From Escherichia phage APECc02, in the sequence record NC_041869.1: a stretch of 64,000 nucleotides of DNA. The stretch is one strand, 5' to 3'. The notes under the pieces are model-generated. The model was not told where the DNA came from, ran no database searches, and was given only the letters and a program-made list of their open reading frames with translations. The translations under genes were made by a program, and so were the position numbers. Below, piece after piece: positions 42,724 to 51,282 of this stretch (positions are counted from its first letter, which is position 1; every line of letters begins with the position of its first letter).

Positions 42724-42796
42724 ACCAGTAAAAACTTAAATATCTGTACTATAAGGATTCGTATGTTTTATGTTCGCTCTGGAACAGAGGTTAGTA

Positions 42797-42880
42797 ACTG
42801 TCCGTGATACGGACACTACTGTCCGTCACGCGGACACATCTGCCCGTAATACGGACACTAACTGTCCGTGATACGGACAC
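42797..42880. repeat. four tandem ~21-bp iterons, each palindromic (CTGTCCGT-N4-ACGGACAC)
   Basis: copies at 42797, 42818, 42839, 42861. Confidence 0.8.
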
Positions 42881-42884
42881 ATAA

Positions 42885-43015
42885 AGAATATAACTAAAAT
42901 AACTAAATAATAAAAAATAAAAGATCTAGTACTTATGGTACTAAGTACATATACTTAACTTATGTAGAATATACTAGATCCTAAGTACCATGTTTTAAAT
43001 TTATTACTTACTATG
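42885..43015. other. AT-rich tract with short direct/inverted repeats (CTAAGTAC, AGTACT)
   Basis: composition and repeats seen directly. Confidence 0.6.
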
Positions 43016-43020
43016 GGTAG

Positions 43021-43270
43021 TGTCGGCCCTTCATTGGCACTCGCCTACGAGGGGCGAGATGCCGGGCCTCCCTGGTGCACACAATAACAGAAGTGCATAC
43101 ATGCAGGTCTGTTAACATGTGTGGGAGCGAAGCGATAGCGCAGGCCAAAGGCCGAGCACTGATGTGGACCACCGACGAAAGCTTGCCAGCGCCGTAAGGA
43201 GTCGGTTGAGAGTCTCCCGCGCGAGCTTGGATGAAGTTTATGTGTGGAAACGGACAAGAAGGCCCCTAAA
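43021..43270. other. GC-rich ORF-free island with multiple hairpins (candidate structured RNA or acquired fragment)
   Basis: marked GC shift versus flanks; no plus-strand ORF; several GC stems. Confidence 0.35.
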
Positions 43271-43383
43271 TCGCTCCACAGCTATATAAACTATACCAGG
43301 TAAGGCAATCGCACCAGTTTGATAGAAAAGCTCGTTACAAAGCGATACAGTGAGTTTTTCTATAACTTGAAGAGGAGGTAGTT

Positions 43384-43962: not shown

Positions 43963-44161
43963 GGGGCGATTAATGAACAATCCGGTAGCAAAGAACTGTA
44001 ATAAATTCAACAAGTCTGCGATTCACACTGACAGGAAAAAGAGTTGGTTTCCTGACATTGACGAGGAGCTTGAGAGTTACTTTGAAGATTTAGTCACCAA
44101 TGCAGAGGAGGTTGCGATTAAAGAATACGCAGACAGGAGGGATAAGGCCGGAATCTGTTGA
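43952..44161 (+). CDS. hypothetical small protein
   Basis: ORF with GAGGGG RBS. Confidence 0.45.
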   Translation: MNAEGRLMNNPVAKNCNKFNKSAIHTDRKKSWFPDIDEELESYFEDLVTNAEEVAIKEYADRRDKAGIC

Positions 44162-44237: not shown

Positions 44238-44480
44238 ATGTTTAAGGTTAAGCTCGTTTTTCGTTCCATGAATGAGGATTATTTAGAAGATGAAGGTGAA
44301 TTTCGTGCACTGGATGATGCAATAGATTTTGCCAACGACTTAGCTTGTATGAATACGGGTTATGGGCTATGCTGTTGGGATGGTGGTGTTCAGATCGGTG
44401 ATAGCAAGATCTTCTACTTCTACCCTGAGCCCGATAACAAACAAATTAAGTATGTTTTATTTATTTGTGCTTTACAATGA
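44238..44480 (+). CDS. hypothetical small acidic protein
   Basis: ORF downstream of promoter. Confidence 0.45.
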   Translation: MFKVKLVFRSMNEDYLEDEGEFRALDDAIDFANDLACMNTGYGLCCWDGGVQIGDSKIFYFYPEPDNKQIKYVLFICALQ

Positions 44481-44767
44481 GGTTGTTTTCGTGTATCATG
44501 ATGAATATCCAATTTAAAGATGAATTTGATGGCTTTATCTCCGGATGCTTTGAAACAGGGTTCGGAGAAGGCTGAGTTACCCTTAGAGGGCTTGATAGTG
44601 CACCACACTTAAAATGGTAGGGGCAGCCAGCACATGACGATGTGACCCCAGCCAACCTGTAATAAGGTCGAGCCAAAGCGCGGTAATGGGCTCTGGTAAC
44701 CCACTTGTTGGGTCTTGCTGGTCCAGGACGCTGGACAAGTCGCAGGGAATACCACCCTGCGGCGAAC

Positions 44768-44796
44768 TTGACAATCAGTATTTGCTATGATAAAAT
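44768..44796 (+). promoter_or_regulatory. sigma70-type promoter (TTGACA-N17-TAAAAT)
   Basis: hexamers read directly. Confidence 0.55.
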
Positions 44797-44824: not shown

Positions 44825-45163
44825 ATGGCGGATACAACTAAAAAGCGTCGCCGTAGAGGCAGACCTCTGAAAGAGGAGTCCAACGCCATTCAGCTAGAGA
44901 AGAACATCCTTGATATGAAGGAATCTTTTATAGCGATGGTTCCAGAAGCTCACAAAGTTTTAAGAGAGCTGATGTTGGACCCGAAAACCAAACAAAATAT
45001 TCGTCAAAGCATTGCAGAGTATGTTCTTGATAAGGCAGACCGAATGCAGGAAGAATATGATGAGATGTTTGGTGAAGAGGAAGAGGTGGTAGTAGAAGAG
45101 GCTGAAAAACCAGCACCTTTTATGCCATTTACCACAGAAATACAGCCTGTTGGCAATAGTTAA
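44825..45163 (+). CDS. hypothetical DNA-binding protein (KKRRRRGRP basic N-terminus, acidic C-terminus)
   Basis: ATG with GGAGGAAA RBS just downstream of promoter. Confidence 0.5.
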   Translation: MADTTKKRRRRGRPLKEESNAIQLEKNILDMKESFIAMVPEAHKVLRELMLDPKTKQNIRQSIAEYVLDKADRMQEEYDEMFGEEEEVVVEEAEKPAPFMPFTTEIQPVGNS

Positions 45164-45172
45164 AATATTTTC

Positions 45173-45201
45173 TTGACAAACTTTGCTTAACAGTGTAATA
45201 T
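45173..45201 (+). promoter_or_regulatory. sigma70-type promoter upstream of tRNA cluster (TTGACA-N17-TAATAT)
   Basis: hexamers read directly. Confidence 0.55.
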
Positions 45202-45539: not shown

Positions 45540-45630
45540 TGAGGGTAGGGAGCAATGGTGCTCAAGCGGTCTTGAAAACCGTCCCGTTGAGGATGACTCG
45601 ATGATGGTTCGATTCCATTACCCTCAGCCA
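45540..45630 (+). tRNA. tRNA-Ser (anticodon TGA), long variable arm
   Basis: anticodon loop CTTGAAA, long variable arm, T-loop TTCGATT; 5' boundary uncertain by 1 nt. Confidence 0.65.
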
Positions 45631-45728: not shown

Positions 45729-45825
45729 GCTAGGTAAGCCCTTTGGCAAGGGCGAGGATTTTTAATCCTGAAAATAGACGAGGTAGTCGTTGAATACATA
45801 GGTGGTTCGATTCCATCACCTAGCA
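45729..45825 (+). ncRNA. atypical tRNA-like element (acceptor and T-arm intact; possible TTT anticodon; ~31-nt variable region)
   Basis: GCTAGGT/ACCTAGC acceptor pairing and GGTTCGATTCC T-arm, but non-canonical middle. Confidence 0.3.
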
Positions 45826-45832
45826 CCTTTTT

Positions 45833-46900: not shown

Positions 46901-47184
46901 GAGTTGCTACACTGTTTATTGCGTGCTTGTTATTATGTGGGTGTGCAACCAGCGTTGAGAGAGAATACAAGATTGACCCTCCGGATGTAGGAAGGTTGAT
47001 TGTTAAACCCCCGGAAGGTGCCATGAAACCACCTGCTAAAGCTATGCCTTTGAAGAAAGGTGCTCCAGATGCAGTAAATTCTGGCATTATGAGGGATAAT
47101 AATTTGTCTTGTAGCAATGATAGAGCTAAATTGATCATTTTGCAAGACTATATTAGAACACTGTTTCCAAAGGAGAGAGGTTAA
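46897..47184 (+). CDS. o-spanin-like outer membrane lipoprotein
   Basis: lipobox-like LLLCGC after signal sequence, Pro-rich mature region. Confidence 0.55.
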   Translation: MRVATLFIACLLLCGCATSVEREYKIDPPDVGRLIVKPPEGAMKPPAKAMPLKKGAPDAVNSGIMRDNNLSCSNDRAKLIILQDYIRTLFPKERG

Positions 47185-47618
47185 TGTCTAAGATTTCTAA
47201 GATTTACGGACCGTGTTCTGAAAAGCAGAAGATGATCCTCGAAAACGATGCAGATATTTTGGTAATCGGCGGTGCCGCAGGGTCTGGCAAGTCGTTCCTC
47301 TTGCAGTTGATGCCGCTTAAAATTATTGATGACCCACACAGCTCTGTGGTTATGTTCCGAAGAACAACCCCGCAGTTGGAAGGTGAGGGTGGACTATGGC
47401 CTAAAGCAGTAGCTATTTATAGTGATCTGCCTGAAAACATTAAGCCAAAGTTTAGAGAGAAGGATCATAAGTTCATTTTTCCACGGTTTGATCCGAGCAC
47501 TGGCAAGTGGGATAGAAGCAAAAAGGGAGCTGTTGTAAAATACTGCCACATGGAGTATGTACAAGATAAGCTTAACCATCAGGGGCTTGAGTACACCATG
47601 GTTTGCTTCGATGAGGGT
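47184..47618 (+). CDS. terminase large subunit, exon 1 (ATPase Walker A to Walker B)
   Basis: Walker A VIGGAAGSGKSF; reading frame ends at MVCFDEG then TAA at inferred intron start. Confidence 0.7.
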
Positions 47619-47668
47619 TAATTTGTAGCTCTCGTAAAACCTCCCTAATTGCGGGGAAATCTTTATTA

Positions 47669-47697
47669 TTGACACCACCAACCTGTTATGGTAACAT
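47669..47697 (+). promoter_or_regulatory. sigma70-type promoter inside intron (TTGACA-N17-TAACAT)
   Basis: hexamers read directly, upstream of intron ORF. Confidence 0.45.
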
Positions 47698-47836
47698 AAT
47701 AGAGGCTTCGAAGAGAGATCGAAGGTATGGTAACAGTGTGTTAATTTAGATAATCCGCAGCGAAGCATCCGAGAGGATGAACGTTCAACGACTAGTCGAA
47801 AGACGTAGAATCAAGCGATTCGAAACGGGAGGGTGA

Positions 47837-48427
47837 ATGTGTAATACTAAAAAATGTATGGATTGCCAAAGAGTTCTGCCTATTGATGATTTCTTTTTAT
47901 CATCTAAGAGCAAGGATGGATACTCAGGTACATGCAAGGAATGCTATATGTACTACAGGAAGGGTGGATCTCGTAAAAACAAAAATATGGTTAAGAGAGA
48001 TGACGCAGCATTGTTTATTCAAGACTTGCTGAAGAAAGGTGAACTTTTTGAATGCAAATCTTGTCATGAAAGTATGCTCGCTGATAGTTTTTACACAAAA
48101 CGTGACTATGGTAAAGTATATCTGGTTACGAACAGGTGTAAGATGTGTGAAAAGTTTTATCAGATTGAGAAGAAATTTCACATAACAAAAGATGAATACT
48201 ATCGTCTACTCTCAGATCAAGATCATAAGTGTGCCATTTGTAGAATATCTCTTAATGAGTATAGGACGCAAGGGTACAGAGATTTCTTTTGTGTTGATCA
48301 TGACCATAAAACTGGTGCTGTAAGAGGGTTGCTTTGTGATAAATGCAACAGAGCTTTAGGTTTCTTCCAAGAAGATGAGGAAACTATTCTTAGAGCGGCA
48401 GAGTATTTACACATTCATAAGATATAG
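47837..48427 (+). CDS. Endo VII-like HNH homing endonuclease (intron-encoded)
   Basis: CAICRISL...CVDHDHKTGAVRGLLCDKCNRALGFF matches T4 Endo VII zinc/HNH motif. Confidence 0.7.
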   Translation: MCNTKKCMDCQRVLPIDDFFLSSKSKDGYSGTCKECYMYYRKGGSRKNKNMVKRDDAALFIQDLLKKGELFECKSCHESMLADSFYTKRDYGKVYLVTNRCKMCEKFYQIEKKFHITKDEYYRLLSDQDHKCAICRISLNEYRTQGYRDFFCVDHDHKTGAVRGLLCDKCNRALGFFQEDEETILRAAEYLHIHKI

Positions 48428-48501
48428 TCTGGTCTGCATGGAGACATGCAGCTGCCTGAAAATGGCGGGGCAAGACTAGCGACCTTGCCCGAACATAAAC
48501 G

Positions 48502-49623
48502 ACACAGTTCGAATGGGAGCAGATAGACTATCTGATGTCTCGTCTGCGATCTCAGTCAAAGTATCCATCAAGAATGGTTATCAGCTGTAACCCTGATTCA
48601 GAACACATGCTTGCCAAACTGGTTAGGTGGTGGTTGGACGATGAAGGGTATCCAGATCCGGAGAAATGTGGTAAGAAAAGGTATTTTATCAGGCGTGACG
48701 GTGAATTTATCTGGGGAGACTCTAAAGAGGAGTTGATAGAGAAATACACCACGGTTAACGGACTGGGTGTGGAGATCAAGCCAAGACCGTTGTCATTCTC
48801 GTTTATAGGCGCAACAATATTCGATAATCCTGTCTGCTTGAGAGACAACCCAGAATACCTTGCTTTCCTTGAAGGTCTGCCTGAGCTTGAAAAAGCCCAG
48901 CTTCTTCATGGTAACTGGTTTGCAAAGCCTGAGGGTGCAAACTATTTTCAAAGATCTTTCCTTCGTGATGCCGATAGAGTACCTCTTGGATCAGTGTCTT
49001 GCAGGGCATGGGATAAAGCAGGAACCGAGAGAACTTCCGGTAATAAATTTCCTGACTTTACCGCCAGTGTCAAGGTAAGTAAAGATAGCGACGGCTTTTA
49101 TTACCTGTCCGGGGATTATTGTCCTGAGAACGTGGATGACGGGAGGTATTCCACAGGTCTGGAAGGCAAGTTCTGTAAAAAGGCTGGTGAACGAGATGTG
49201 ATCATCAGGAAACAGGCGCAGTTTGATGGTGATGATTGTATAATCGTATTCTCTGTGGACCCCGGTCAGGCAGGTAAGAGTGAGTTCTTAACCTCCTCCA
49301 GATCCTTGCTTGCCGAAGGGTTTAGGGTTGAAGAAGACCCAATGCCTTCCAACAAATCTAAACTGACAAGGTTCTCACCTTTTGCCAATCTTGCCCAACA
49401 AGGAATGGTGAGGATTGTAAAATCCAGTTTCCATCCTGATACTCTGGAAGCATTTCTGACTGAACTTGAAAAATTCAACGGGGAAAGATCAACATTTAAC
49501 AGAAAAGACGACTGGGCCGACTGTGTAGCTTCTGCGATTAATTTCCTGGAGAAAGAGGAGGTAGCACTTCCTTGTGTGATTCCATCAATCTCATCACCTT
49601 CTATGTTCAAGCGTTTTATCTAA
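48502..49623 (+). CDS. terminase large subunit, exon 2 (nuclease domain)
   Basis: frame open from 48499; contiguous with exon 1 if intron removed; exact 5' boundary inferred. Confidence 0.6.
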   Translation, partial: TQFEWEQIDYLMSRLRSQSKYPSRMVISCNPDSEHMLAKLVRWWLDDEGYPDPEKCGKKRYFIRRDGEFIWGDSKEELIEKYTTVNGLGVEIKPRPLSFSFIGATIFDNPVCLRDNPEYLAFLEGLPELEKAQLLHGNWFAKPEGANYFQRSFLRDADRVPLGSVSCRAWDKAGTERTSGNKFPDFTASVKVSKDSDGFYYLSGDYCPENVDDGRYSTGLEGKFCKKAGERDVIIRKQAQFDGDDCIIVFSVDPGQAGKSEFLTSSRSLLAEGFRVEEDPMPSNKSKLTRFSPFANLAQQGMVRIVKSSFHPDTLEAFLTELEKFNGERSTFNRKDDWADCVASAINFLEKEEVALPCVIPSISSPSMFKRFI

Positions 49624-49626
49624 GTG

Positions 49627-49655
49627 TTGCCAATCTTAATTAGATGTGGTAGAAT
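49627..49655 (+). promoter_or_regulatory. sigma70-type promoter (TTGCCA-N17-TAGAAT, TGn-extended)
   Basis: hexamers read directly. Confidence 0.5.
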
Positions 49656-49673
49656 AGAGTAATCGGAGATACT

Positions 49674-49701
49674 AGCCCTCTAACACGAGGGCTATTTTGT
49701 T
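49674..49701 (+). promoter_or_regulatory. leader hairpin plus T-run between promoter and portal start (attenuator-like)
   Basis: AGCCCTC-TAACAC-GAGGGCT then ATTTTGTT. Confidence 0.35.
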
Positions 49702-49725
49702 ATACTGTTTTGAGGGGTAAAGCTT

Positions 49726-51282
49726 GTGTCCAAAAAGAACCGCAGGAAACACAACGCCACAGCCAAAACTGTGAATAAATCTGGGAACGCAGGCGCACCA
49801 ACTCATAATGTTCGTATGAGTGAGATCGGTTCTGGCGCACTTTCCCAAATTATGGCAGAATCGCAATCTATGATGGTTGAGGAATTGCGTTGGCCTCAGC
49901 TGATTGCCACCGTGGAGACTATGAAATGTGATTCCACAGTTGCTACTGCCTTAGATACAAAATATGTTTTCATCACGAAAGCATTCAATGATTTTAAGAT
50001 CCTCTATAATGTTAAAAGTGAAGACTCTAAGAAAGCTGCCGAGCTTATAGAGTATTCTTTGCGTAATTTGGCAAACCAACAAACTCTTCGAGATATTGCA
50101 AGAAGCGCAGCTACCTTTAACGAGTATGGTTTTTCACTGTTTGAGAAAGTATACCGCAGAGAGAAAGAAGGTAAATATGCCGGGATGCTTCTTATTGATA
50201 AAATTGCATTCCGACCTCAGGCCAGTTTGTCCAGATCAGAGCCGTTTGTCTTTGACAAGAATAGTAGAACACTGACAGGTATTTATCAATCACCTAATGC
50301 ATTTCTAAACACTCAGAATGCACGCTGGGCTGGACCTCTTGCTGCAATGCCTTCAAAAGGCTTTAATGAGCCTGAAATTTTCATCCCTGCTAAAAAGCTT
50401 ATGCTCATGACCCTGTCAGGAACAGAATCTAACCCTGCAGGTGTGTCACCGATGATAGGTTGCTACAGATCTTTCCGTGAGAAAGTTCTGATTGAAAACC
50501 TTGAGGTTGTTGGCTGTTCCAAAGACCTTGGTGGTGTGCTTGAGCTGAAAATTCCTTCCAATATTTTGAACAAGGCCAGCATTGACCCGAATTCAATGGA
50601 AGGGAGAATGGTTGCAGACCTTATGCTTGACGCAGCAAACGCCCATAGTGGTGAGCAAAGTTTCTTTATACTTCCGTCTGATAGAGATAAGTCTGGTAAA
50701 GAGCTTTACTCCATGACCCTGAAGGGGGTTGACGGTATGGGTAAGCAGTATTCCACTAAAGATTTGATTGATGCCCGTAAGAAGGCGATTCTTGACCGTT
50801 TCGGTGCTGGCTTTATTAACCTCGGTAACGATAACGTTGGATCCTTCTCTCTGTCTGAGTCAAAACAGTCTATCCATGGTCATTTTGTTCAGCGTGATAT
50901 AGATATTATCACTGAGGCCTTCAATAAAGATCTTATTCCACAGCTTCTGGCATTGAATGGTATCATCCTTGAAGATGATGATATGCCTAAACTGAAACCT
51001 GGTCTGATTGAAGAAGTGGATATGGAGAGCTTCTCCAAGTTTGTCCAGAGGATCGGTGCTGTAGGTTACTTGCCAAAAACTCCTGCAGTAATTAATAAGA
51101 TTCTTGAAGTTGGCGGGTTTGATGAAAGATTTGACGAGGACATGGATCAGGAAGAGCTGATGAAGCTCTTGGGCCAGGACATTAGTAGGGCTGGTGATGG
51201 AATGGCTGCAGGATCCACTGGCAACGGCACTTCTAAGATGTCATCAACCAGAGATAATTCCATATCCAACATGGAAAATTAA
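49726..51282 (+). CDS. portal protein (GTG start)
   Basis: 518 aa immediately after terminase; GAGGGG RBS; call by position and size. Confidence 0.55.
   Translation: MSKKNRRKHNATAKTVNKSGNAGAPTHNVRMSEIGSGALSQIMAESQSMMVEELRWPQLIATVETMKCDSTVATALDTKYVFITKAFNDFKILYNVKSEDSKKAAELIEYSLRNLANQQTLRDIARSAATFNEYGFSLFEKVYRREKEGKYAGMLLIDKIAFRPQASLSRSEPFVFDKNSRTLTGIYQSPNAFLNTQNARWAGPLAAMPSKGFNEPEIFIPAKKLMLMTLSGTESNPAGVSPMIGCYRSFREKVLIENLEVVGCSKDLGGVLELKIPSNILNKASIDPNSMEGRMVADLMLDAANAHSGEQSFFILPSDRDKSGKELYSMTLKGVDGMGKQYSTKDLIDARKKAILDRFGAGFINLGNDNVGSFSLSESKQSIHGHFVQRDIDIITEAFNKDLIPQLLALNGIILEDDDMPKLKPGLIEEVDMESFSKFVQRIGAVGYLPKTPAVINKILEVGGFDERFDEDMDQEELMKLLGQDISRAGDGMAAGSTGNGTSKMSSTRDNSISNMEN

What the first reader, a model, noticed from the sequence alone, without database searches (positions are those of the whole stretch)
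44481..44767. Second GC-rich ORF-free island flanked by consensus promoters
About 280 bp between gene 44238-44480 and the promoter at 44768 is GC-enriched and has only junk-like ORFs on the opposite strand. Its position upstream of the tRNA cluster suggests another non-coding RNA or regulatory leader.
Basis: seen in the sequence. Interest (0 to 1): 0.4.

Follow-up and report, generated by a model that had tools for sequence, protein, structure and literature searches.

The report
Conserved phage RNA three-way junction
The GC-rich gap upstream of this rV5-like phage's tRNA genes encodes a structured non-coding RNA, and its 43-base three-way-junction core is almost identical in T4 and at least five other unrelated groups of enterobacterial phages yet is absent from Rfam 15 and from the literature I could search.

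Summary
The window is a Vequintavirus (99.5% to phage rV5). The finding is the unannotated gap between rV5 ORF75 and promoter P74. Only 44576-44767 is GC-rich (55.7% vs 43%, top 0.3% of windows). 44481-44575 is AT-rich and holds a promoter-like site and a doubtful 32-aa ORF. No reading frame in the GC-rich part survives natural indels.

At 44650-44692 (+ strand) lies a three-way junction: P1 covaries in all four pairs, P2 and P3 are invariant, and there is a GUAA joining strand and a bulged G. Across 32 distinct copies 96.6% of cells pair, against 21-40% in slid controls.

The same core occurs in about 860 further phage records, mostly T4-likes where it sits just upstream of vs.8 (T4's long vs.8 annotation wrongly reads through it). 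It also occurs in ~46-kb Klebsiella/Salmonella siphoviruses, phage Ivi and uncultured phages. Outside T4-likes it usually sits in or beside a tRNA cluster on the same strand. Divergent rV5 relatives give it its own consensus promoter.

It matches no Rfam family, no E. coli sequence, and no paper by sequence string. The function is unknown. My best guess is a stable RNA that binds a conserved host component. A cis-regulatory switch is the main rival.

The parts
44471..44499 (+). Promoter-like site, TTTACA-17-TATCAT (10/12). It overlaps the end of ORF75 and is a possible start of the transcript that carries the island in rV5-type phages.
   Evidence: The sequence is invariant among rV5-type relatives. 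Function not tested.
44477..44575 (+). Doubtful 32-aa ORF (MRLFSCIMMNIQFKDEFDGFISGCFETGFGEG). AT-rich (38.9% GC for 44481-44575) and not part of the GC-rich RNA.
   Evidence: Annotated in CM1, rV5_ev158 and MiataMamis and matches phrog_6828. In the divergent Vequintavirinae-like group it is only 8 codons, MKDEFDGF*. The few substitutions seen are synonymous or fall in the last codon. Coding status is unresolved.
44550..44578 (+). Decayed remnant (TTGAAA-17-TGAGTT) of the dedicated promoter that drives the element in divergent relatives.
   Evidence: L036, L047, L076 and others have TTGACA-17-TATACT at the homologous position, ending about 10 nt before CCCCUAGAGGG.
44580..44618 (+). 5' module specific to Vequintavirinae: hairpin CCCUUAGAGGG, then CUUGAUAGUGC, then hairpin ACCA...UGGU.
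   Evidence: Nearly invariant between rV5-type and the divergent group. In the divergent group a second copy of the module (CCCAUAGAGGGCUUGAAAGUGC) follows the core. The helices are not proven by covariation.
44620..44649 (+). Hairpin just 5' of the core: GGGG ... CACAU-GACG-AUGUG ... CCCC.
   Evidence: The whole helix is replaced in the divergent group by GGAAC ... CUACG-GA-CGUAG ... GUUCC. Every lineage has a hairpin at this position. Within lineages it covaries: T4 CCUCAU/AUGAGG vs Dhakavirus CCUCACA/UGUGAGG, and siphovirus GAAUG/CAUUC vs GAGUG/CACUC.
44650..44692 (+). Core three-way junction. P1 is 44650-44654 paired with 44687 and 44689-44692, with an invariant bulged G at 44688. P2 is the hairpin ACCU-GUAAUA-AGGU at 44655-44668. 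P3 is the hairpin CGAGC-CAAA-GCGCG at 44669-44682. The joining strand GUAA is 44683-44686.
   Evidence: The covariance model scores 68.1 bits, E 1e-19, and this is the only copy in the window. Across 32 distinct copies 96.6% of cells pair vs 21-40% in slid controls. All four P1 pairs change on both sides, and pair 7-40 occurs as AU 18, UA 5, UG 5, CG 3, GC 1. There are 24 invariant columns.
44699..44761 (+). 3' hairpins specific to the rV5-type: ACCCA-CUUGU-UGGGU (44699-44713), CUUG..GUCCAG-GACG-CUGGAC..AAG (44714-44739) and CGCAGGG-AAUACCA-CCCUGCG (44741-44761, no U tract).
   Evidence: The first hairpin is deleted in L114 and phiWec189. The second is replaced by GCUGG...CCAGC in the divergent group, and the third is absent there. 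None was called an intrinsic terminator.
44768..44796 (+). Promoter P74 (TTGACA-17-TAAAAT with TG), the 3' boundary of the island. It drives ORF74 (44825-45163).
   Evidence: and the rV5 annotation 'Sigma70-type promoter; P74'.

Best explanation
**What it is.** The GC-rich island (44576-44767, + strand) specifies a structured non-coding RNA of about 190 nt. Its functional heart is a 43-nt three-way junction at 44650-44692. The junction has 24 invariant nucleotides, an invariant GUAA joining strand and an invariant bulged G. Unrelated virulent phages of Enterobacteriaceae share it, which points to horizontal transfer.

**Shown here.**
- The structure, from covariation.
- The strand.
- The absence of any coding frame.
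- The distribution across phage lineages.
- The association with tRNA clusters.
- A dedicated promoter in divergent relatives, and an intrinsic terminator right after the core in one lineage.

**Inferred.**
- In rV5-type phages it is transcribed from the upstream promoters (P75 and/or 44471-44499).
- With no terminator before P74, it is carried on read-through precursors towards ORF74 and the tRNAs, and it accumulates as a processed stable RNA in the way T4's rnaC and rnaD do.
- Its stems P2 and P3 are invariant even where pairing alone would allow change. No phage protein co-occurs with it across lineages. I therefore infer that the junction is a specific docking site for a conserved host-cell component, either a protein or a small molecule.
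- It would be used as a free RNA in the tRNA-cluster phages and as a cis leader of vs.8 in T4-likes.

**How the confidence splits.** That this is a functional structured non-coding RNA element: about 0.85. That it works specifically as a free, host-factor-binding RNA: about 0.35. The figure given is a blend of the two.
For: - **Identity and setting:**
- **GC enrichment:**
- **Shared core:** about 860 further phage records beyond the 117 rV5-types, with unrelated flanks. About 31 true metagenomic copies all fall in the same phage lineages, and about 45 chance hits lack P1/P2.
- **Covariation:** P1 pairs 5-43, 6-42 and 7-40 are paired in 32/32 sequences with 2-5 pair types. Overall 96.6% of cells pair, against 21-40% in slid controls.
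- **P3:** its loop is made of exactly the four variable positions. Divergent second copies compensate C-G vs U-A in P3, and A-U vs G-C in P2.
- **Strand:** G-U pairs exist only on the + strand, and every copy runs the same way as its neighbouring genes or tRNAs.
- **tRNA link:** L085 has it between two tRNAs, L130 has it 38 nt after a tRNA array, the siphoviruses have it 200-360 nt upstream of tRNAs, and the window has it 570 nt upstream.
- **Own promoter** in divergent relatives, and a **terminator** 19 nt after the core in L037.
- **Not coding:** no frame survives the indels, and T4's long vs.8 start is an annotation artefact.
- **No partner protein:** no neighbouring protein is shared across lineages, and vs.8 is confined to T4-likes.
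- **Strong selection:** the core stays 87-95% identical where vs.8 protein has dropped to 37%.
Against: - No transcript, processing or binding data exist here, so 'stable RNA' and 'host-factor docking site' are inferences.
- P2 and P3 never vary in the main alignment, so covariation cannot prove them. An alternative extended hairpin made from the same invariant bases pairs 92.4% of cells, although it fails at the columns that do vary.
- Thermodynamics gives no support: the isolated cores have z-scores near 0 and the whole island only -2.1.
- In T4-likes the element sits directly upstream of an ORF, sometimes in tandem, which looks like a cis regulator rather than a free RNA.
- Within rV5-types the peripheral hairpins vary or are deleted, so the true RNA may be shorter than 190 nt.
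Confidence: 0.55

Rival explanations
1. Cis-acting regulatory leader, either a riboswitch or a protein-binding switch. The junction senses a ligand or protein and changes read-through or translation of what lies downstream: vs.8 in T4-likes, and ORF74 plus the tRNAs in rV5-likes.
For: - In about 850 T4-like genomes the element lies immediately upstream of the vs.8 start. Between them is a conserved 3' segment containing the ribosome-binding site.
- L039 and L041 carry two tandem copies upstream of vs.8, an arrangement known from riboswitches.
- Two mutually exclusive folds can be built from the same invariant bases, which is what a switch would need.
- In divergent rV5 relatives the element starts right after a promoter.
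Against: - In rV5-type and divergent Vequintavirinae-like phages a strong consensus promoter sits between the element and the next gene.
- In L037 a terminator follows the core with no ORF after it.
- In L085 and L130 it lies among tRNA genes.
- No terminator or anti-terminator, and no conserved RBS-sequestering pairing, was found in the window.
- No Rfam riboswitch model matches.
Confidence: 0.25
2. Self-cleaving ribozyme or dedicated processing signal. It would cut the precursor at a defined site and help release tRNAs or neighbouring RNA cassettes.
For: - It is a small junction with invariant unpaired nucleotides (GUAA and a bulged G), as in small ribozymes.
- It is located in polycistronic tRNA/ncRNA arrays that must be processed.
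Against: - No match to hammerhead, twister, twister-sister, pistol, hatchet or HDV-like models in Rfam, even at E <= 10 with the element searched alone.
- The topology (no linker between P1/P2 or P2/P3, and a 4-nt J3/1) does not fit the hammerhead core as I recall it (my own knowledge, not tested).
- Activity cannot be tested with these tools.
Confidence: 0.07
3. DNA-level element, such as a protein-binding site, a recombination or homing hotspot, or part of a promoter region, that spreads between phages as DNA and has no RNA function.
For: - The core has clearly moved horizontally between unrelated phages, with unrelated flanks.
- It lies in promoter-dense early regions.
Against: - Compensatory changes keep base pairing rather than sequence.
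- G-U pairs (23/32 at pair 25-32, 6 at 4-44, 5 at 7-40) would be A-C mismatches on the other strand or in a DNA cruciform.
- The orientation relative to transcription is constant in every lineage.
Confidence: 0.03
4. Protein-coding sequence: the minus-strand ORFs of 62-71 aa, one of which MiataMamis annotates, or a + strand ORF.
For: All three minus-strand frames are open across the island in rV5-types, and one record annotates a minus-strand CDS there.
Against: - Natural +1 (L019, L117) and -13 (phiWec189) indels join different frames.
- The divergent group breaks the minus frames to 19-54 aa.
- The + strand has stops in every frame.
- Substitutions follow base pairing, not codon positions.
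Confidence: 0.02

Closest known systems
T4 species 1 and species 2 RNAs (rnaC, rnaD)
   Same: They are small, structured, stable RNAs of unknown function, encoded on the same strand as a phage tRNA cluster and released from the tRNA precursor transcript. This is established T4 knowledge, and the T4T record annotates them as 'small, stable RNA'. That is the setting the present element has in L085, L130, the siphoviruses and rV5.
   Different: There is no sequence or structural relationship: the core model finds nothing in the T4 tRNA region (best 8.7 bits, E 0.24). T4 carries the present element elsewhere, between denV and vs.8.
ROOL and GOLLD large ornate RNAs
   Same: They are phage- or prophage-borne structured RNAs of unknown function that are often found next to tRNA genes (my own knowledge; see also PMC12286853, listed).
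   Different: They are several hundred nucleotides long and form homo-oligomeric complexes. The Rfam scans, which I assume include these two families, report neither in the window or in related loci. The present core is 43 nt and occurs in enterobacterial phages.
Three-way-junction riboswitch aptamers and orphan riboswitch candidates
   Same: It is a compact junction with invariant joining nucleotides and freely covarying P1. In T4-likes it sits in a 5' leader and sometimes in tandem.
   Different: It matches no Rfam riboswitch. Most non-T4 copies are not in a 5' UTR. No expression platform was identified and no ligand is known.
Candidate structured RNAs from bulk phage surveys (Fremin and Bhatt 2023, PMC10690425)
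   Same: That survey reports thousands of unnamed covarying motifs in IMG/VR phage contigs, including tRNA-like and gene-upstream motifs. This motif could be among them.
   Different: The paper's text does not describe it, and its supplementary files are not held. The core sequence string occurs in no paper in the library.

Membership tests
Any Rfam 15 family | Covariance-model score at or near the family's gathering threshold | tested here: not met
   Nothing in the island at gathering thresholds. At E <= 10 on 2.5 kb and on the element alone there are only noise hits (8.9-11.9 bits against thresholds of 37-88). Nothing at the T4, Dhakavirus or Ivi copies either.
tRNA / tmRNA | Cloverleaf or tmRNA detected by ARAGORN or the Rfam tRNA model | tested here: not met
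   ARAGORN and Rfam find tRNAs only from 45260 onward. The core has three helices, a 6-nt P2 loop and a 4-nt P3 loop.
Riboswitch | Conserved, covarying aptamer | tested here: met
   96.6% of cells paired, 38 cells changed on both sides, 24 invariant columns.
Riboswitch | Consistent position in the 5' UTR of the regulated gene, with an expression platform | tested here: inconclusive
   True for T4-likes, directly upstream of vs.8. Not true for rV5-likes, where a promoter intervenes, nor for L037, where a terminator follows and no ORF, nor for L085 and L130, where it lies among tRNAs.
Riboswitch | Specific ligand binding | not testable with these tools
   Needs in-line probing or ITC.
Hfq-type trans-acting sRNA | Own promoter, an intrinsic terminator with a U tail, and a conserved single-stranded seed | tested here: not met
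   The window has no terminator in the island, and the last hairpin lacks a U tract. The conserved bases lie in helices and the junction, not in a free seed. No complementarity to E. coli rRNA beyond chance and no match to E. coli genomes. An own promoter exists only in divergent relatives and a terminator only in L037.
T4 rnaC/rnaD-type stable RNAs | Encoded within or next to a phage tRNA operon on the same strand | tested here: met
T4 rnaC/rnaD-type stable RNAs | Sequence or structure homology to rnaC or rnaD | tested here: not met
   no hit of the core model in the T4 tRNA region. The sequences were read.
Small self-cleaving ribozymes (hammerhead, twister, twister-sister, pistol, hatchet, HDV-like) | Match to the family consensus; site-specific self-cleavage | tested here: not met
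   No Rfam match. Cleavage activity cannot be tested here.
Protein-coding gene | A reading frame conserved among relatives | tested here: not met
   for the GC-rich part. The separate 32-aa ORF at 44477-44575 remains inconclusive.
Intrinsic terminator | GC-rich hairpin followed by a U tract | tested here: not met
   No terminator-like site was called in 44481-44767. Hairpin 44741-44761 is followed by GCGAACUUGACA.

The most novel reading that the evidence does not exclude
The junction is a new class of ligand- or protein-sensing RNA, either a new riboswitch class or a host-factor decoy. Unrelated virulent enterobacterial phages, T4 included, have exchanged it. They deploy it either as a free RNA riding in tRNA operons or as a cis switch in front of vs.8. 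It could be, for example, a counter-measure against a host system that targets tRNAs or translation.
Probability: 0.3. Interest if true: 0.85.

Novelty: new variant of a known kind. Interest (0 to 1): 0.62.

Why it matters
Phage tRNA clusters have long been known to carry extra stable RNAs of unknown function: T4 rnaC and rnaD have been known since the 1970s, and ROOL and GOLLD more recently.

This is a small, sharply defined and very strongly conserved RNA module. It crosses phage families, it is present in the best-studied phage of all (T4, where annotation hides it inside a falsely extended vs.8 gene), and it is short enough for direct biochemistry and genetics.

The phages that carry it share their hosts (Enterobacteriaceae) and no gene next to the element, so it probably engages a host component. 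If so, it could reveal a new point of phage-host interaction or a new regulatory RNA class.

On the practical side, it corrects annotations: the vs.8 start in T4, and the spurious minus-strand CDS in some rV5-like records.

Tried and rejected
1. **Rfam.** Four scans, at gathering and permissive thresholds, of the whole window, the local 2.5 kb, the element alone and other loci: nothing.
2. **A host copy or antisense target.** No match in 5,426 complete E. coli genomes.
3. **rRNA mimicry or pairing.** By eye I saw GCGGUAA as in the 16S 530 loop, a GUAAUA hexaloop as in the 23S GTPase centre, and a 5S-like stretch. Against a real rrn operon the best matches are no better than shuffled queries (80-91% of shuffles score as high), and the covariance model finds nothing. 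Rejected.
4. **Relation to the first GC-rich island (43015-43290), or a second copy in the window.** None.
5. **Relation to T4 rnaC/rnaD.** None.
6. **Binding site for the vs.8 protein.** vs.8 homologues occur only in T4-likes. Rejected.
7. **Any partner protein encoded nearby and shared across lineages.** None. The only cross-hit is the terminase shared by L037 and the Vequintavirinae.
8. **A pseudoknot between the loop of the 5' hairpin and the bases 3' of P1.** It looked attractive by eye in six lineages, but helices of that length arise in 13-100% of shuffles. Reported as unproven.
9. **Thermodynamic support.** Isolated cores have z-scores near 0 and inconsistent minimum-energy folds, and the whole-island folds differ between relatives. 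Not informative.
10. **RNAalifold on the whole Vequintavirinae island.** Misalignment of the replaced hairpins muddles the result, although it did reveal P3.
11. **Bacterial and archaeal genome contigs.** Only two chance 19-mers that lack the rest of the motif.
12. **Literature.** No description by gene name, by topic or by sequence string.

Full report
**1. Source and setting**

The window is a Vequintavirus. A 651-nt stretch around the finding is 99.5-99.8% identical to phages rV5 and CM1, and 153 phage records match it. In the rV5 record the interval 44481-44767 is an unannotated gap. It lies between ORF75 (44238-44480) and the annotated sigma-70 promoter P74 (44768-44796). After P74 come ORF74 (44825-45163), a further promoter P(tRNA) at 45173, and the tRNA cluster from 45260. 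All flanking proteins belong to families of unknown function.

**2. Check of the observation**

GC enrichment is real but covers only part of the interval.
- 44576-44767 is 55.7% GC, against 43.0% for the window (sd 4.0 for 192-nt windows). Only 0.3% of such windows reach that value.
- 44481-44575 is 38.9% GC. It holds a promoter-like site (TTTACA-17-TATCAT, 44471-44499) and a 32-aa + strand ORF (44477-44575). Some records annotate this ORF.

The ORF's status is unclear. In a divergent group of relatives it is only eight codons long, MKDEFDGF*. The few substitutions among rV5-types are synonymous or fall in the last codon.

In the GC-rich part all three minus-strand frames are open, but only because of base composition. 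Natural +1 and -13 indels in relatives splice different frames together, the divergent group breaks the frames, and the + strand has stops in every frame.

**3. The key result: a shared core**

A sensitive BLAST of the island against 50,697 phage records matched 977 of them. Of these, 117 are rV5-types covering the whole island. The other ~860, mostly T4-type phages, match only 32-47 nt at 85-97% identity.

In T4 the match lies between denV and vs.8. It also occurs in the unrelated 45-kb phage Ivi. The flanks are unrelated in sequence.

Pattern scans of IMG/VR and of metagenomes added more carriers:
- divergent Vequintavirinae-like contigs (L036, L047-L049, L076, L091);
- ~46-kb Klebsiella/Salmonella siphoviruses (L032, L035, L040, L042, L055, L070, L099; identified);
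- L034, L037, L028/L073, L085 and L130.

Of the 81 metagenome hits, about 31 are true copies and all fall in these same phage lineages. About 45 are GC-rich chance matches that lack the flanking helices. No copy was found in E. coli genomes. Bacterial and archaeal genome contigs gave only two chance 19-mers.

**4. Structure of the core**

All 32 distinct copies align without gaps over 48 columns, and 24 columns are invariant. The best model is a three-way junction.

| Element | Window coordinates | Behaviour across copies |
|---|---|---|
| P1 | 44650-44654 with 44687 and 44689-44692 | Covaries at all four pairs scored |
| Bulged G in P1 | 44688 | Invariant |
| P2, ACCU-GUAAUA-AGGU | 44655-44668 | Stem invariant |
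| P3, CGAGC-NNNN-GYGCG | 44669-44682 | Stem nearly invariant; the loop is the four variable positions |
| Joining strand GUAA | 44683-44686 | Invariant |

- The three inner P1 pairs are paired in 32/32 sequences. Pair 5-43 is CG 24 / GC 8. Pair 6-42 is CG 23 / GC 4 / UA 3 / AU 1 / GU 1. Pair 7-40 is AU 18 / UA 5 / UG 5 / CG 3 / GC 1.
- Overall 96.6% of cells pair, against 21-40% when partners are slid by 1-3 columns. 38 cells carry changes on both sides.
- G25 in P3 pairs with U (23 sequences) or C (8).
- Divergent second copies in L039 and L041 show compensatory changes in P3 (C-G vs U-A) and in P2 (A-U vs G-C).
- The G-U pairs exist only on the + strand, the strand of the flanking genes and tRNAs.
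- The covariance model built from this alignment finds exactly one copy in the window (44648-44695, 68.1 bits, E 1e-19) and nothing in the first GC-rich island.

**5. Caveats on the structure**

- P2 and P3 do not vary in the main alignment, so covariation cannot prove them.
- An alternative extended hairpin uses the same invariant bases, with ACC pairing to the GGU of GGUAA. It pairs 92.4% of cells. It fails at the columns that do vary: 14-32 is broken in 9 sequences, 19-27 in 4, 6-41 in 6 and 5-42 in 9. I therefore prefer the junction, but a switch between the two folds is not excluded.
- Thermodynamic folding of single sequences is uninformative. Core z-scores are near 0 and the whole island reaches only -2.1.
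- A pseudoknot between the 5' hairpin loop and the bases after P1 looked attractive by eye, but it is no better than shuffles.

**6. The rest of the island**

The divergent Vequintavirinae-like group was the main comparison.
- The 5' module (44580-44618) is conserved within Vequintavirinae.
- The hairpin just 5' of the core is replaced helix-for-helix. GGGG..CACAU/AUGUG..CCCC becomes GGAAC..CUACG/CGUAG..GUUCC.
- Of the three 3' hairpins, the first is deleted in L114 and phiWec189. The second is replaced by a different helix. The third is found only in rV5-types and has no U tract.
- Every lineage has a hairpin directly 5' of P1, with covariation inside lineages.

So the island is a modular RNA: a universal core with lineage-specific decorations.

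**7. Transcription**

In the divergent group a full consensus promoter (TTGACA-17-TATACT) ends about 10 nt before the 5' module, so there the element is a transcription unit of its own. This group has no cultured representative in the phage collection.

rV5-types keep only a decayed remnant of that promoter (TTGAAA-17-TGAGTT, 44550-44578). They must rely on P75 or on the site at 44471-44499.

The island contains no terminator, so read-through into ORF74 and the tRNAs is expected. In L037, a distant relative identified by its terminase, an 11-bp intrinsic terminator follows the core by 19 nt.

**8. Genomic context across lineages**

| Lineage | Position of the element |
|---|---|
| L085 | Between tRNA-Thr and tRNA-Gly |
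| L130 | 38 nt after a four-tRNA array, followed by another tRNA-like sequence |
| ~46-kb siphoviruses | 200-360 nt upstream of tRNAs, in an ORF-free, promoter-driven island |
| L034, L037 | 300-730 nt downstream of tRNAs |
| Window | 570 nt upstream of the first tRNA |
| T4-likes | Directly upstream of vs.8, not near tRNAs |

Every copy is on the same strand as its neighbours.

T4-likes are the exception in position. T4's 216-aa vs.8 annotation reads through the element, but that extension has in-frame stops in five close relatives and no ATG in two others. The real start is the downstream ATG.

vs.8 homologues exist only in T4-likes, and no other neighbouring protein is shared between lineages. 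The core stays 87-95% identical in T4-likes whose vs.8 protein is only 37% identical.

**9. How it most likely works**

Shown: a conserved, + strand, non-coding structured element with a covarying P1 and an invariant junction. It has been transferred horizontally among virulent enterobacterial phages and usually sits in tRNA operons.

Inferred: it is made as part of early or tRNA precursor transcripts and persists as a stable RNA. The carrier phages share their hosts and no gene next to the element, and helices P2 and P3 are conserved in sequence rather than merely in pairing. The junction is therefore most likely a specific docking site for a conserved host component. T4-likes appear to use the same module in cis, in front of vs.8.

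The main rival is a purely cis-acting switch (riboswitch-like). The T4 context, the tandem copies and the alternative fold favour it. The intervening promoters, the terminator in L037 and the copies among tRNAs weaken it. A ribozyme or processing signal, a DNA-level site and a protein-coding role are less likely or refuted.

**10. Comparison with what is known**

No Rfam 15 family matches at any threshold. The element is unrelated to T4 rnaC/rnaD and to host rRNA. The core sequence occurs in no paper of the searchable library, and topic searches found no description. It may be one of the thousands of unnamed motifs in a bulk survey of phage RNAs (PMC10690425), but I could not check this because the supplementary files are not held.

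In kind it resembles the stable RNAs of unknown function that ride in phage tRNA clusters (T4 rnaC/rnaD, ROOL, GOLLD), but it is not a member of any of those families. I rate it a new variant of a known kind: an undescribed RNA family, with function still to be found.

**11. Verdict**

The finding is more interesting than it first looked, because the element is shared with T4 and many other phages and is easy to test. Interest 0.62.

Noticed in passing
window 42790-42880: Four copies of the palindrome GTCCGT-gat/aat/cac-ACGGAC in about 90 nt, followed by an AT-rich stretch. It looks like an operator array, and it lies downstream of the rV5 'putative transcriptional regulator' ORF79 and upstream of the first GC-rich island.
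   Followed up: no
window 43015-43290: The first GC-rich island (56% GC). rV5 annotates a GTG-started 56-aa 'ORF78' there (43119-43289) but CM1 annotates nothing. No Rfam hit beyond noise, and it does not contain the core motif of this finding.
   Followed up: partly
window 45729-45827: ARAGORN calls a 99-nt tRNA of unknown identity with a four-base anticodon (atcc). Rfam's tRNA model scores it 35.5 bits. Neither rV5 nor CM1 annotates it. tRNA-Ser(tga) at 45540-45630 is found by ARAGORN but not by Rfam at its gathering score.
   Followed up: no
L131 2420-3100 (Klebsiella phage VLCpiS13c, ON602737); also L032, L035, L040, L042, L085: The ~46-48-kb Klebsiella/Salmonella siphoviruses carry an ORF-free island of 0.7-1 kb with its own sigma-70 promoter, inserted in the opposite direction to the tail genes. 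It holds an array of different ~120-nt cassettes. Each cassette is framed by the same closing stem (GUUGUGRY ... RYCACAAC) and the tail ACACAACAGGUAAGAGCAUU, and the array is followed by tRNAs. The core motif is the cargo of one cassette in some phages.
   Followed up: partly
L003 1491-1601 (T4T HM137666, complement of 64,782-64,892): T4's vs.8 is annotated as 216 aa starting inside the RNA element. The 37-aa extension has in-frame stops in five close relatives and lacks the ATG in two others, so vs.8 most likely starts at L003 1602 (179 aa).
   Followed up: yes
The second copy is divergent (27-40 bits) and has a shortened P3.
   Followed up: partly
L037 12784-13079; window about 47180-50100: L037 has a group I intron (Rfam 54 bits) near its terminase gene. 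The rV5 terminase is annotated as joined from three pieces, and in the window its homologue is split into separate ORFs.
   Followed up: no
phage collection: 18 'Campylobacter phage' records (e.g. MG065662, MG065635): Records labelled as Campylobacter jejuni phages are 98-99% identical to rV5-type coliphages across this locus. A 'Pseudomonas phage' record (PV654520) likewise carries the T4-type copy and vs.8. Both look like host mislabelling or contamination.
   Followed up: no
window 43973-44161: rV5 ORF76 (62 aa) matches Pfam DUF7230 at its N-terminus (E 7.5e-8), the only Pfam hit among the neighbouring small proteins.
   Followed up: no
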